NCBI RefSeq assembly: GCF_009914755.1
Contig: NC_060946.1
DNA length: 64,000 bases
DNA from: the human T2T-CHM13v2.0 reference genome, Homo sapiens
Strand: one strand, 5' to 3'
This document shows positions 7,661-13,770 of this stretch, one piece after another. A model generated the notes under the pieces. The model was given only the letters and a program-made list of their open reading frames with translations, was not told the DNA's origin and made no database searches. Within the stretch, counting starts at the first letter, position 1, and each line of letters starts with the position of its first letter. Both the position numbers and the translations under genes were made by a program.

Positions 7661-7843
7661 ATGACACAGCTGACTACGCCCTTGGTCACAGGGGACCTGA
7701 GATCCTCCACGATTTACGGGACCGGCGCCACCTCGGGCTCGAACCACCCTCTCGATAGGGCCGCCGCTAAGTAATCGGCGTAGGGGTTCAGCCGCACATC
7801 TCCTTCCCGCGCCGCGGACCGAGCAGTCGTTGGTGCTCTTCAG
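7661..7843 (+). pseudogene. Exon 1 of an unprocessed C5orf52/4921536K21Rik-like pseudogene
   Basis: GCCGCCATG start; translates MTQLTTPLVTGDLRSSTIYGTGATSGSNHPLDR/(fs)RR*VIGVGVQPHISFPR/(fs)PRTEQSLVLF-S; donor TTCAG|GTGCGG, phase 2. Homology recalled, not searched. Confidence 0.8.
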
Positions 7844-9214
7844 GTGCGGCCTGGGTGCCCAGAGCCTTCGTTAGACTCTCGGACCCGCAAGGGAGCCCGA
7901 ACTCTTTCAGACTCGCTCTCCCTCAGCCGGACCTCGGCCCTTTTTCACACCCCAGGGGAGTCTGGATTTCTCATAGTCCTGGGCACCAGCCCCTTCCCAG
8001 TCTAGCTCTTGGGACTCCCTGAAGCCGGAACTCCCTCGCCTGGACTCCCGGGAGAACCTGGAATCCCCATCTCCAGTCCACATTTTCTCAGAATCTGTCC
8101 TAGCCCTTCAGTCTCCCAGGCATGACATCGTGTGGTCCCAGCGCCCTAGGTGGTGAGCTGTGACTCTCCTTAGAGCCTGGCGAGGCCGAGGTCCTCCCCA
8201 GCTCGAACCCATCCCACACTCCCCTTCTCAGCCTCTGTGTTCCCCAGTGGTCCTGGAAAAGCCCCCAGTTCCCTCTGCCTGGCCCCAATCCTCACAAACC
8301 CAATTACCCACGCTCCTTTCCATTCCATAACCCCCATCACTGCATCCTCCAGGCTCCCATCCATGGAGGACTTGAGGTGGAAAGCAATTTGGTTCAAAAT
8401 AACCATTATTTATTACTTGAAAGGGAATATTTCCAGTCGTTGCCAGCCTCCTCCCCTTCTAGTATTGGTAAATTTTTTGCACCACTGAGTGGGTGAAGAG
8501 TTTTATGCGTCTTTAAATGTTTTAAGGATTTTTTTAAAAAAACAAAAAACTCTCAGGATTTGGGGGACTTTTGTGTTTGAGCATCTTGATCTCTAAACCA
8601 GCTTTTTCCATCACCTCATACCTAGGCTATGCATAGAGGTCAGAAAAATGTAAATGAGAGATTGAGAAGTTGGATTGTTCATACTAGTTTGTAAATATGA
8701 AAACATTCACAACACTCCAGTTCCAAATAGGCTGAAAATGCATTAGAAAAACTAGTCCTTCAATATTTTTTATCCTTCTACAGTTGTCTTTTTTGACCCA
8801 ATTATAAAAGTAGTGTACACTTATAGAAAAATGAGGACAGGCATGGTGGCTCACGCTTGTATTCCCACCACTTCACTTTGAAAGGCTGAGGCAGTTGGAT
8901 CACCTGAGCTCAGGAGTTCGAGACCAGCCTGGGCAACAGGGTGAAACCCCATCTCTACCAAAAATACAAAAAATTAGCCGGGCTTGGTGGCTCACCTGTG
9001 GTCCCAGTTACTCAGGAGGCTGAGGTGGGAGGATCACTTGAGCCTGGGATGTGGAGGTTGCAGTGAGCTGAGATTGTGCCACTACTCTCCAACCTGGGGG
9101 ACAGAGTGAGACCCCGTCTCGAAGAAATAAAAAGAAGACAAGACAGGCCAGCAGCATAAGTGGCTAGGGACAATCACTGTTAACATTTTGGTGTATTTTG
9201 ATCAGAATCCATTC

Positions 9215-9262
9215 ATATATATATATATATATATATATATATATATATATATATATATATAT
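9215..9262. repeat. (TA)n microsatellite
   Basis: About 24 perfect AT units. Confidence 0.97.
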
Positions 9263-10891: not shown

Positions 10892-11006
10892 CTTAATGAT
10901 TCCAGTGAAGCAGCAGTGAAAAATTTTTTACTCATATAAAAAGAGCAGTTTATCTTGGGTGGGTTTTTATGACAAGCTCATAGCACAACGACTCCATGAG
11001 GTGCAG
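10892..11006 (+). pseudogene. Exon 2 of the C5orf52-like pseudogene
   Basis: Acceptor cctttccctccccgctccAG|C and donor CAG|GTAAAG are intact. Translates S-LM/(fs)SSEAAVKNFLL[+7 nt]KSSLSWVGFYDKLIAQRLHEVQ; phase 2 at the start matches exon 1. Confidence 0.8.
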
Positions 11007-13567
11007 GTAAAGTAGCCACAAGCTTTTGCATTAGAGGGTGTTAGTGGCTTGACCCATATTCATTTCATTCTCTCTATATCCTGGGGGATCATAAAGGTGA
11101 TAGGAAGTCCCCAAGGTGCTCTAAGGCAGGCCCCGTTTTACAGAGGAGGCAATTGACACTCAGGGTTACTGACTTGCCCAAGGTGTCACACCTGTTCCTA
11201 GGCTAAGGAGGCTAGAAAGACTCCATGTCTCTTGGTTTTGTTTTTGTTTTTGTTTTTCCTGAAAGCACATTATCTCTCTAGGGAACCCATGAATGGATTC
11301 TTATTTTCTCCCATACAAAGTCTTGGGTTCTAGGCTGGGCGCGGTGGCTCATGCCTGTAATCCCAGCACTTTGCGGGAGGCAGGACGGTCACTTGAGGTT
11401 AGGAGTTTGAAATCAGCCTAGTCAATGTGGCGAAGCCCCGTCTCTACTAAAAATACAAAACTGATCTGGGCATGGTGGTGGGTGCCTGTAATACCAGCTA
11501 CATGAGAGGCTGAGACATGAGCATTGCTTGAACCGGGTGGTGAAGGTTGCAGTGAGCTGTGATAGTACTCCAGCCTGGGCAACAGAGCAAGACTCCGTCT
11601 CAAAAAAAAAAACAAAAACAAAAAAACAAACAAGCAAAAATAAATAAATAAAACCCCCAAAAAACTAAGGTCTTGGGTCCTAGAGTTTGAATCAGCATTA
11701 ACAGCATCTTGTCAGTTTTTTCCTTTGGGGATTATCCCCATTTTCCAGATGAGAACTGAGGCTCTTCTCCCACTTTTTGCTTATGGACAGGTAAGAGTTT
11801 GACTCAGGCTTACTCAAAAGCCTGAGTGCTGTCACCTACTGTTCCCATAGACCCTAATTGATGAACTCATTAAACCTGTCCTTAGGGCCTGCTTGGGACA
11901 GCTACTGTGTTGGGTGCTAGGAAGAGACACATGAAAAAGATGGACACCAATAACATACTCATTTTTTCAAACAGAGCAGGAAGCCCAGGGTTGAGCTTCT
12001 GCCCCTTCTTGACTCTGTTGACTTCTCTCCATGTTCCAGGGTCAAGTCTGGATGGGCCCACAGGATTCTAACATCAAAAACAGTTGGAGATCCTTAAGAG
12101 ATGGTGCCAGATCCTCTTGAAGGTCACAAAGACAAAAGCAGAGCAGAGACCTGGGCATTTCTGCCTCTGCTAAACTTCCAATGGTGGGATGTAGTGGAAC
12201 TAGATGGGCAGGCCAGCTTTGTGTGACCTTGGGTGAATCACACTTCCTCCAGACTCTGCTTTCTCATTTGTAAAAATAGGATCTATTAAGATCCTCTCAG
12301 TGGCAGGTAATATAAACTGAACTTGAACTAGTTCAAGCAAAATAGAGAAGTTGGGTTTACATAATCAAGGATGGATAGGGCACAGTCGCCAATGTTTTAG
12401 GGGAGAGAAGCCAGGGGCTGTACTACCACCAGGTATGTCTTCCATTCTGTCTTCATTGTCTTTATATTGTGTCTCGTCTCGTCCCGTCCCATCCCGTCCC
12501 ATCCCGTCTCGTCTGTTTGAGACACGGTCTCACTCTTGCCCAGGCTGGAGGCCAGTAGCATGAGGCTCACTGTAGCTTCAACCTCTTGGGTTCAAGCAGT
12601 CCTCCCACCTCAGCCTCCCAGGTAGCTGGGATTACAGGCATATGCCACCATGCCTGGCTAATTTTTTGAATTTTTAGTAGAGATGAGGTTTCACCACATT
12701 GCCCAGGCTGGTCTCAAACTCCTGGGCTCAAGTGATCTGCCCTCCTCTGCTTCCCAAAGTGCTGGGATTACAGGCATATGCCACCGTGCCCAGCCCTTTG
12801 TGGCTTTCTGAACACCAGTATCATTATCAGGCTGGCTGAACCTGGGGAGCAGAGCCACAGGAAACCTTGGCCTGTAGACCACAAGAAGTACTTCCACTGC
12901 TGCTCCAGTTAGACAAATCCTGAGGAAGGACTCCAGTTGGCCCCAGTTGGTTCATGGGCCCATCCCTGTTTTAATCACTGTGGCCAGGTGGTGTGGGGTA
13001 TTCTGAGTGGCCCACGATAGGTTCGGGGCCAACTGGGTGGGGAATGTCGTACACCTTAGGTGGGGCAAGGAACTGTGAACTACTCTTAACTGGAAGCTCC
13101 TGAGTTGGCTTTATGTATACCTGAGGGCTGTGCCAACTTTCAGCTGTCCAGAAGCTTCCTTTTACTTTTTTTTATTTTTTTATTTTTTATTTATTTATTT
13201 TTGAGACAAAGTCTCCCTGTCACCCGGGTTGGAGTGCAGCAGCGTGATCTCAACTCACTGCAGCCTCTGCCTCCTGGGTTCAAGTGATTCTCCTGCCTCA
13301 GCCTCCCGAGTAGCTGGGACTACAGGCGTGCGCTACCACGCCTGGCTAATTTTTGTATTTTTAGTAGAGACGGAGTTTCACCATGTTGGCCAGGCTGGTC
13401 TCAAACTCCTGACCTCAAGTGATCTGCCCTCCTTGGCTTCCCGAAGTGTTGAGATTACAGGTGTGAGCCACTGCGCTGGGCCTTGGAGTTACCTAGCTTA
13501 ATGCCCACTTTTTACAAATAAATAGACTCCCTGTGAGTCAAAGTATTTATGGAATGAATATAGTGTG

Positions 13568-13770
13568 GAGAGAGCTTTAGAGAAGAGCAATAAGGAGATC
13601 AGCCACTAATGAAGATCAGACCACCTGATAAAAACTTTATGACAGACCAGCTCAGAAAGCTGGGGCACTGGAGACGGGAATCCATGAACATCCACCAGTA
13701 CTTGGATAACATTTGTGTATACCAGGAATAGTTGAAACTCCAGTCTCCCAAGAAAGACCAGCCACTCTAG
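13568..13770 (+). pseudogene. Exon 3 (terminal) of the C5orf52-like pseudogene
   Basis: Translates RALEKSNKEISH**RSDHL/(fs)FMTDQLRKLGHWRRESMNIHQYLDNICVYQE*LKLQSPKKDQPL*. Acceptor is degraded; AATAGA at 13861 may be a decayed poly(A) signal. Confidence 0.78.

What the first reader, a model, noticed from the sequence alone, without database searches (positions are those of the whole stretch)
7661..13770. Hidden three-exon dead gene head-to-head with DUSP18: probable ancestral copy of C5orf52
Seen in sequence: a GCCGCCATG start about 230 bp from the DUSP18 TSS region on the opposite strand; a phase-2 donor at 7843; a well-formed 115-nt exon at 10892-11006 whose acceptor completes the Ser codon (AG|C); and a terminal segment 13568-13770. 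Joined across about 5 frameshifting indels and 4 stops they give a roughly 160-aa protein: MTQLTTPLVTGDLRSST...ATSGSNHPLDR..RR*VIGVGVQPHISFPRPRTEQSLVLFS|LM.SSEAAVKNFLLKSSLSWVGFYDKLIAQRLHEVQ|.RALEKSNKEISH..DHL..FMTDQLRKLGHWRRESMNIHQYLDNI. Recalled knowledge: this matches the testis protein C5orf52 (motifs VLFSLMNSSEAAV, FMTDQLRKL), and its mouse counterpart 4921536K21Rik lies between Dusp18 and Osbp2. Inference: the gene was duplicated to chr5 in a primate ancestor and the syntenic parent died here, leaving its promoter to DUSP18. It is invisible to the ORF track; I do not know whether it is annotated.
Basis: partly seen in the sequence, partly recalled or inferred. Interest (0 to 1): 0.9.

Follow-up and report, generated by a model that had tools for sequence, protein, structure and literature searches.

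The report
Dead parental copy of C5orf52
Between DUSP18 and OSBP2 on human chromosome 22 lies the broken original of the testis gene C5orf52, whose working copy was moved to chromosome 5 by an 18-kb DNA duplication in an early monkey/ape ancestor.

Summary
Window 7607-13770 (+) holds three exons that are colinear with the three coding exons of the intact 159-aa gene at chr5:158190640-158199024 (C5orf52, Pfam DUF5528). Exon boundaries and intron phases (2 and 0) match. The chr22 copy has 5 frameshifts, 4 in-frame stops and a lost exon-3 acceptor.

The homology is a colinear DNA block, window 5461-23924 against chr5:158188859-158203488. Substitution divergence outside the exons is 11.4%. The block includes the introns, the CpG-island promoter, DUSP18's non-coding exon 1 and nine shared Alus.

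Chr5 carries only this stub of DUSP18, so chr22 is the source. A 37-row protein tree puts the chr22 relic as sister to the monkey/ape C5orf52 proteins (99/97), with tarsier and lemurs outside. AU tests of the alternatives are borderline (p 0.053 and 0.041).

A 2019 screen listed mouse 4921536K21Rik as lost from its syntenic human place. This relic explains that listing.

- The move was an intron-containing segmental duplication on the anthropoid stem.
- The ancestral start codon is at 7607.

This is a new example of a known kind (gene relocation, as for DPY19L2). It is absent from the RefSeq table, although one database protein (P0121) already models the locus.

The parts
5461..23924 (.). Source copy of an interchromosomal duplicated block; its counterpart is chr5:158188859-158203488.
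   Evidence: Ten colinear plus-strand BLAST segments at 82.5-87.2% identity counting gaps. Both break-points are sharp. No further colinear unique matches lie outside the block.
7607..7843 (+). Pseudogene exon 1. The ancestral ATG is at 7607; the ATG used by the human chr5 gene corresponds to 7661. The donor is phase 2.
   Evidence: Lesions: loss of about 8 codons (24 nt) near 7724-7742, a frameshift at about 7745-7759 (4 nt missing relative to chr5), TAA at 7768-7770, and a 1-nt deletion at about 7807-7811. The donor GT is kept.
10892..11006 (+). Pseudogene exon 2 (115 nt; the chr5 exon is 109 nt).
   Evidence: Lesions: a 1-nt deletion at 10899-10900 and 7 extra nt at about 10934-10940. The AG acceptor and GT donor are kept. 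The flanking intron sequence is almost identical to chr5.
13568..13770 (+). Pseudogene exon 3, running up to the ancestral stop TAG at 13768-13770.
   Evidence: The Pfam DUF5528 hit covers 13630-13707. Lesions: acceptor TG instead of AG at 13566-13567, TAA 13607-13609, TGA 13610-13612, 6 extra nt, a 1-nt deletion at 13628-13629, and TAG at 13729-13731.
7000..7900 (.). CpG island and shared head-to-head promoter of DUSP18 (minus strand) and the pseudogene (plus strand).
   Evidence: GC 0.66 and CpG observed/expected 0.83. The chr5 counterpart has GC 0.65 and 0.88. DUSP18 exon 1 (7001-7414) lies inside the segment 6184-7556, which aligns to chr5:158189261-158190605 at 83.5%.
14826..20189 (.). 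About 5.4 kb present on chr22 and missing from the chr5 copy.
   Evidence: The two BLAST segments on either side both end in an Alu on chr22 (about 14537-14824 and 20197-20480). Both map to a single Alu on chr5 (158199817-158200121). I infer an Alu-Alu deletion on chr5.
4493..4641 (+). Local 149-bp copy of the 3' part of pseudogene exon 1 plus the start of intron 1, lying inside DUSP18 intron 1.
   Evidence: 87.9% identical to 7745-7889. It shares the TAA and the 1-nt deletion of exon 1 but keeps the 4 nt that exon 1 lacks at about 7759. It gives a weak Pfam hit at E=0.19.

Best explanation
Window 7607-13770 (+) is an unprocessed pseudogene. It is the disabled ancestral-locus copy of the DUF5528 gene known in human as C5orf52.

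Proposed history:
1. In the ancestor the gene sat head-to-head with DUSP18 and shared its CpG-island promoter.
2. On the anthropoid stem, after the tarsier split and before the New World / Old World monkey split, an approximately 18.5-kb stretch was copied as DNA to chr5q. It comprised the gene with its introns, the promoter, DUSP18's non-coding exon 1 and the start of DUSP18 intron 1.
3. Because the copy took its promoter along, it could be expressed at once (inferred).
4. The chr5 copy stayed open. The chr22 original lost constraint and accumulated frameshifts, stops and a splice-site loss.

The net effect is relocation of a functional gene. The chr22 relic makes no DUF5528 protein. Its 5' end survives because it is part of the DUSP18 promoter (inferred).
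For: Family and structure:
- A search of the whole genome with Pfam PF17666 found 7 matches at E<=10.
- Three were the exons of an intact gene on chr5 (E 2.4e-19 to 4.7e-17; profile positions 1-71, 71-110, 107-151).
- Two were on chr22 inside the window (E 2.8e-7 and 0.19).
- Two were weak hits on other chromosomes (E 5 and 9).
- The chr5 exons of 212, 109 and 159 nt splice to an open 159-codon frame.
- The chr22 exons align at the same boundaries.

DNA-level duplication:
- The colinear block is window 5461-23924 against chr5:158188859-158203488.
- Over 10,717 aligned non-exon sites, p=0.114 and K80=0.125.
- The genome holds only these two copies. A 661-nt probe around exon 2 found itself, chr5 at 85%, and two matches of 34 and 58 nt.

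Direction:
- DUSP18 exon 1 and 5' intron lie inside the block.
- None of the 27 genome matches to the DUSP18 protein lies near the chr5 block.
- The mouse gene is classed as having orthologous flanks in human with no gene specified there (PMC6842137, Table 2).

Decay:
- 5 frameshifts and 4 stops, plus the lost exon-3 acceptor.
- I compared 80 alignment columns with a clear ancestral state. The chr22 copy alone changed at 17, the chr5-type proteins alone at 4, both differently at 2, and both identically at 3.

Timing:
- In the 37-row tree the relic and 8 anthropoid proteins form a clade at 99/97. The 8 anthropoids alone form a clade at 99/95. Tarsier, four strepsirrhines, colugo and tree shrew fall outside.
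- Nine Alus sit at shared positions within the block on chr22, so the copy was made after Alu insertion began.
- Shared Alus are on average more diverged from a local consensus (0.104) than the 3 chr22-specific (0.061) and 6 chr5-specific (0.075) Alus.
- The Ensembl v95 orthologue row lists tarsier, Microcebus, Propithecus and Otolemur but no anthropoid.
Against: - AU tests do not cleanly exclude an older duplication. Holding relic and tarsier together costs 19.7 lnL (p=0.053). Holding tarsier with the anthropoid proteins costs 20.4 lnL (p=0.041).
- The tree rests on a read-through of a broken gene with X at the breaks. It uses proteins only and 191 columns.
- I could not see any non-human genome. 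The places of the monkey, tarsier and lemur genes are therefore not shown, and the names of the mouse flanking genes are recalled.
- Exons differ more than non-exon sequence (82 of 449 against 1222 of 10,717 sites, Fisher p=3e-5; dN/dS 1.10). Simple decay of one copy does not predict this.
- The acceptor loss depends on an alignment that breaks down just upstream of exon 3.
Confidence: 0.88

Rival explanations
1. The duplication is older than the tarsier-anthropoid split (haplorhine or primate ancestor). On this view the tree position of the relic is an artefact of a short, broken sequence.
For: AU tests are borderline: p=0.053 for relic plus tarsier and p=0.041 for tarsier plus the anthropoid proteins. 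Only 3 shared derived residues were counted.
Against: The free tree gives 99/97 for relic plus anthropoids, with tarsier outside. Both held trees are about 20 lnL worse. The relic shares S>I, S>L and D>E with the anthropoid proteins, while tarsier keeps the ancestral residues. Some shared Alus show low divergence (0.053 and 0.055), close to half the non-CpG distance between the copies. This points to a duplication during Alu activity. Ensembl v95 called the tarsier and lemur genes orthologues of the mouse gene, but no anthropoid gene.
Confidence: 0.1
2. Chr5 holds the ancestral gene, and the chr22 copy is a later, dead duplicate.
For: Sequence comparison of two copies alone is symmetric. I did not view synteny in any outgroup genome.
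Against: The chr5 block ends inside DUSP18 intron 1. It holds only DUSP18's non-coding exon 1, whereas chr22 holds the whole of DUSP18. The chr22 relic keeps ancestral features that the chr5 gene lost: the upstream ATG, the FMTDQ motif, and the C-terminal tail up to the ancestral stop. The mouse gene is reported to have no annotated human gene at its syntenic place, although C5orf52 is annotated on chr5.
Confidence: 0.03
3. The relic is not inert. Its 5' part works as regulatory or transcribed non-coding sequence (promoter/enhancer of DUSP18, exon of SLC35E4 read-through transcripts). This would be in addition to being a pseudogene.
For: According to the hub's RefSeq table, exon 1 lies in a RefSeq 'enhancer' element (7512-7901) and inside a terminal exon (7140-8558, + strand) of alternative SLC35E4 transcripts. 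The CpG island is kept (observed/expected 0.83). The 149-bp copy at 4493-4641 almost exactly holds a DUSP18 alternative exon (4496-4602, minus strand), with AG and GT read on that strand.
Against: No expression or conservation data were available here. Exons 2 and 3 have no annotated transcript. Overlap with annotated elements does not show function.
Confidence: 0.3

Closest known systems
DPY19L2 / DPY19L2P1 relocation (Carson et al. 2006, PMC1475853; abstract read)
   Same: A primate DNA-level duplication was followed by silencing of the copy at the ancestral, mouse-syntenic place. The descendant copy elsewhere survived, so the functional gene changed chromosomal position.
   Different: DPY19L2 moved within recent, high-identity low-copy repeats that have several transcribed pseudogenes. 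Here there is a single old two-copy block, about 11% diverged in substitutions, and not listed in the RefSeq table.
C5orf52 / 4921536K21Rik family (Pfam DUF5528, PF17666)
   Same: Same three-exon layout and intron phases. The Pfam hit is above the cut-off for the last exon. The relic groups with the family in the tree.
   Different: The frame is broken 5 times and stopped 4 times, and one splice site is lost. The relic keeps the ancestral N-terminal start and C-terminal tail, which the human chr5 gene has changed.
Unitary pseudogenes (a lost gene with no functional copy left in the genome)
   Same: A disabled gene sitting at the place where other mammals have a working one. The 2019 screen in effect counted it this way (PMC6842137).
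   Different: A working daughter copy exists on chr5. The function was moved, not lost.

Membership tests
Pfam DUF5528 (C5orf52 family) | Profile match above the curated cut-off | tested here: met
   Window 13594-13731 scores 45.3 bits against a cut-off of 28.9, E=1.1e-11. In the genome search it scores 41.5 bits. Exons 1 and 2 were not found by the profile and were shown only by DNA and guide-protein alignment.
Pfam DUF5528 (C5orf52 family) | Three coding exons with intron phases 2 and 0 | tested here: met
   Chr5 exons are 212, 109 and 159 nt. The chr22 boundaries align to the same positions.
Pfam DUF5528 (C5orf52 family) | Open reading frame (a working member) | tested here: not met
   5 frameshifts and 4 stops; the exon-3 acceptor reads TG.
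Unprocessed (duplication-related) pseudogene at the parental locus | Introns and flanks retained; homology extends beyond the exons | tested here: met
   The colinear block 5461-23924 includes both introns, the promoter and shared Alus.
Unprocessed (duplication-related) pseudogene at the parental locus | An intact paralogue exists elsewhere in the genome | tested here: met
   Chr5:158190640-158199024 has an open 159-codon frame. No third copy was found.
Unprocessed (duplication-related) pseudogene at the parental locus | This copy, not the other, lies at the ancestral place | tested here: inconclusive
   Supported by the truncated DUSP18 stub on chr5 and by PMC6842137. Outgroup genomes could not be inspected.
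Processed pseudogene (retrocopy) | No introns; exons contiguous | tested here: not met
   The exons are separated by 3.0 kb and 2.6 kb of intron that aligns to the chr5 introns.
Unitary pseudogene | No functional paralogue left in the genome | tested here: not met
   An intact chr5 copy exists.

The most novel reading that the evidence does not exclude
The move was more than a neutral swap of places. After relocation the chr5 copy was remodelled:
- catarrhines use a new start codon;
- a frameshift rewrote the C-terminal tail;
- a burst of replacements sits on the branch between the duplication and the monkey/ape crown (length 0.11).

The exons of the pair differ more than their introns (18.3% against 11.4%, p=3e-5; dN/dS 1.10). 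This is the pattern expected if the relocated testis/cilia gene evolved adaptively in anthropoids.

Meanwhile pieces of the dead parent were reused as exons of DUSP18 and SLC35E4 transcripts.
Probability: 0.25. Interest if true: 0.5.

Novelty: new member of a known kind. Interest (0 to 1): 0.35.

Why it matters
- It settles what 'orthologue' means for C5orf52. The human gene is a relocated daughter of the gene that mouse keeps as 4921536K21Rik.
- It explains a conflict between sources. Synteny-based and Ensembl v95 orthology called the mouse gene 'lost' in human and other anthropoids (PMC6842137). NCBI names and mouse-phenotyping work treat C5orf52 as its counterpart (PMC5773596, passage seen).
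- It adds a clean, datable case of gene relocation by an old interchromosomal duplication, complete with the promoter.
- It flags an unannotated pseudogene in the RefSeq table for this region. That pseudogene overlaps a RefSeq 'enhancer' and alternative exons of two neighbouring genes.
- Lists of genes 'lost' in long-lived species should drop this entry.

Tried and rejected
- Pfam scan of seven translated fragments: 6 of 7 gave nothing, being short and cut by frameshifts.
- Literature search for 'DUF5528': 0 papers.
- Literature search for 'C5orf52': 15 papers, none on its evolution judging by titles and abstract starts. I read passages in two of them.
- GenTree supplements: 3 of 4 files searched with no mention of C5orf52; file 1 could not be searched.
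- Search for a paper naming the mouse neighbours (Dusp18, Osbp2, Slc35e4): 3 papers, none useful by title or abstract start.
- A second, inverted chain of matches between window 53739-56972 and chr5:158183370-158184417 looked like more shared sequence. It is a common interspersed repeat, with 11,654 first-look candidates genome-wide.
- Search with the relic's last open stretch for monkey or ape proteins of the chr22 type: only 3 candidates, none a named anthropoid protein.
- A rate-based date from K=0.125 needs calibrations that I hold only from memory. I therefore give it as consistent with 45-60 Myr and do not rest on it.
- Retrocopy, chance ORF and unitary-loss readings were rejected (see the membership test).
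Full report
**What is there.**
The window is human chr22:31124001-31188000.
- The last open stretch (13594-13731, 45 codons) matches Pfam DUF5528 (PF17666) at E=1.1e-11, profile positions 127-152 of 152. 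The other 6 of 7 translated fragments gave no hit.
- A search of the whole assembly with the same profile gave 7 matches at E<=10.
  - Three are strong and lie on chr5 (profile 1-71, 71-110, 107-151; E 3.6e-19, 4.7e-17, 2.4e-19).
  - One lies at window 13630-13707 (E 2.8e-7).
  - One weak match lies at window 4457-4579 (E 0.19).
  - Two lie near the noise level on other chromosomes (E 5 and 9).
- The chr5 exons (158190640-158190851, 158194117-158194225, 158198866-158199024; 212, 109 and 159 nt) splice through GT/AG sites into an open 159-codon frame with intron phases 2 and 0.
- Database relatives of this protein are named 'C5orf52 homolog', and in rodents '4921536K21Rik'.

**The chr22 copy is the same gene, broken.**
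- Exon-by-exon DNA alignment to chr5 gives 83.1%, 79.6% and 81.6% identity over ungapped exon columns. The exon ends fall at the same positions, and the intron flanks are nearly identical around exon 2.
- I ran a frameshift-aware alignment with colugo (P0015) and tarsier (P0033) proteins as guides.
This upstream part matches the N-termini of capuchin, colugo and tree-shrew proteins.
  - It also shows that the frame ran to the TAG at 13768-13770.
- Lesions in exon 1:
  - loss of about 8 codons near 7724-7742;
  - a frameshift at about 7745-7759 (4 nt missing relative to chr5);
  - TAA at 7768-7770;
  - a 1-nt deletion at about 7807-7811.
- Lesions in exon 2:
  - a 1-nt deletion at 10899-10900;
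  - 7 extra nt at about 10934-10940.
- Lesions in exon 3:
  - TG in place of the AG acceptor at 13566-13567 (the alignment upstream of this point breaks down, so this one is probable rather than certain);
  - TAA at 13607-13609 and TGA at 13610-13612;
  - 6 extra nt;
  - a 1-nt deletion at 13628-13629;
  - TAG at 13729-13731.

**It is a DNA-level block duplication, not a retrocopy.**
- BLAST of the window against chr5:158170001-158220000 gives ten colinear plus-strand segments. They join window 5461-23924 to chr5:158188859-158203488, with sharp ends on both sides.
- Over 10,717 aligned non-exon sites the copies differ at 11.4% (K80 0.125; 0.107 without CpG sites).
- The block holds both introns and a CpG island (GC 0.66, observed/expected 0.83; chr5 copy 0.65 and 0.88).
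- It also holds DUSP18's non-coding exon 1 (7001-7414) and about 1.5 kb of DUSP18 intron 1.
- About 5.4 kb (14826-20189) is missing on chr5. Two Alus flank it on chr22 and a single Alu sits at the junction on chr5, which I read as an Alu-Alu deletion (inference).
- A 661-nt probe around exon 2 finds only these two copies in the genome, plus two matches of 34 and 58 nt.

**Direction.**
- Chr5 carries only the stub of DUSP18. None of the 27 genome matches to the DUSP18 protein lies near the block. A copy that ends inside a neighbouring gene is the derived one.
- The relic also keeps ancestral states that the chr5 gene has changed: the upstream ATG, the FMTDQ motif, and the long C-terminal tail.
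- PMC6842137 gives independent support. I read section 6 with Table 2, and passages of supplementary file 1.
  - It lists mouse 4921536K21Rik (chr11:3886088-3895098, minus strand, testis) as class F: orthologous flanking genes in human, but no gene specified there.
  - Its Ensembl v95 orthologue row shows genes in rodents, rabbit, Microcebus, Propithecus, Otolemur and tarsier, and in no anthropoid.
- That the mouse flanks are Dusp18 and Osbp2 is recalled, not shown here.

**Timing.**
- A 37-row protein tree was built with IQ-TREE (LG+C20, 191 columns, marsupial root). I chose 35 database proteins out of the 120 held and added the human chr5 product and the relic read through with X at breaks.
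  - The relic is sister to the 8 anthropoid proteins (clade of 9 at 99/97; the 8 alone at 99/95).
  - Tarsier, four strepsirrhines, colugo and tree shrew lie outside.
- Of 80 columns with a clear ancestral state, 54 are unchanged in both. Three changes are shared by the relic and the anthropoid proteins (S>I, S>L, D>E; tarsier keeps the ancestral residue). Four are in the chr5 type only, 17 in the relic only, and 2 differ in both.
- AU tests are borderline.
  - Relic plus tarsier held together: 19.7 lnL worse, p=0.053.
  - Tarsier held with the anthropoid proteins: 20.4 lnL worse, p=0.041.
- Nine Alus lie at shared positions in the block on chr22, and seven were picked up on chr5. Their mean non-CpG divergence from a local consensus is 0.104-0.111. 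The 3 chr22-specific Alus average 0.061 and the 6 chr5-specific Alus 0.075. The copy was therefore made while Alus were inserting.
- Together these place the event on the anthropoid stem. I put about 80% on that and about 10% on an older date.

**How it works now.**
- The relic cannot make the protein.
- Its 5' end sits in the DUSP18 promoter island. By the hub's RefSeq table it also sits in an 'enhancer' element (7512-7901) and in a terminal exon (7140-8558) of alternative SLC35E4 transcripts.
- The gene's function is carried by the chr5 copy, which took the promoter with it (inference).
- The family's role is unknown. [quoted passage not shown]

**Results that do not fit neatly.**
- Exons of the pair differ more than non-exon sequence (82 of 449 against 1222 of 10,717 sites, Fisher p=3e-5; exons 2 and 3 alone p=3e-4). 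dN/dS is 1.10, with dN 0.212 and dS 0.193 over 138 codon pairs.
- Local alignments may understate non-coding divergence, so I treat this as unexplained. It is compatible with fast or adaptive change of the chr5 copy.
- In the tree, the relic's branch (0.33) and the path from the duplication to human chr5 (about 0.31) are similar in length.

**Known or new.**
- The RefSeq table supplied by the hub has no entry for the relic.
- One database protein without a name, P0121 (144 aa), consists of blocks that are 100% identical to the window's translation. Its small jumps fall at the frameshifts. At least one automatic gene model of this locus, or of a near-identical one, therefore exists.
- I found no paper describing the relocation. 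The searches were 'C5orf52' (15 papers), '4921536K21Rik' (4 papers), 'DUF5528' (0 papers), and one on gene relocation and segmental duplication.
- GENCODE could not be consulted.
- The closest precedent is DPY19L2/DPY19L2P1 (PMC1475853, abstract read).

**Verdict.**
It is a new example of a known kind, of moderate interest.

Noticed in passing
window 4493-4641 (+), within DUSP18 intron 1: A 149-bp copy of the pseudogene's exon-1 end and intron start (87.9% identical to 7745-7889). It shares the TAA and the 1-nt deletion but keeps 4 nt that were later lost at about 7759, so it dates those lesions relative to each other. RefSeq's alternative DUSP18 exons 4496-4602 and 4496-4662 (minus strand) lie on it, with AG and GT sites on that strand. 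A fragment of a dead gene is thus used antisense as an exon.
   Followed up: partly
L012 (chr5:158190001-158200000), exon 3 at 8866-9024, and proteins P0004, P0005, P0007, P0009, P0011: The anthropoid chr5 gene has a rewritten C-terminus: 4 nt are missing relative to the chr22 copy, giving 'YLTFG...' instead of 'YLDSI...'. Several Old World monkey models end early or lack part of the last exon. The tail of the working copy looks weakly constrained.
   Followed up: partly
window 7553-7621: A roughly 33-nt motif that includes the ancestral ATG context is present twice in tandem, just upstream of the pseudogene frame. The chr5 copy has lost this ATG.
   Followed up: no
window 14826-20189 versus chr5:158199817-158200121: 5.4 kb is present only on chr22. 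It is flanked by two Alus that correspond to one Alu on chr5. This is a likely Alu-Alu recombination deletion in the daughter copy.
   Followed up: partly
window 53739-56972 versus chr5:158183370-158184417 (inverted): A colinear inverted chain of weak matches lies next to the chr5 block. It is a common interspersed repeat (11,654 first-look candidates in the genome) and is unrelated to the duplication.
   Followed up: yes
PMC6842137 Table 2: [quoted passage not shown]
   Followed up: partly
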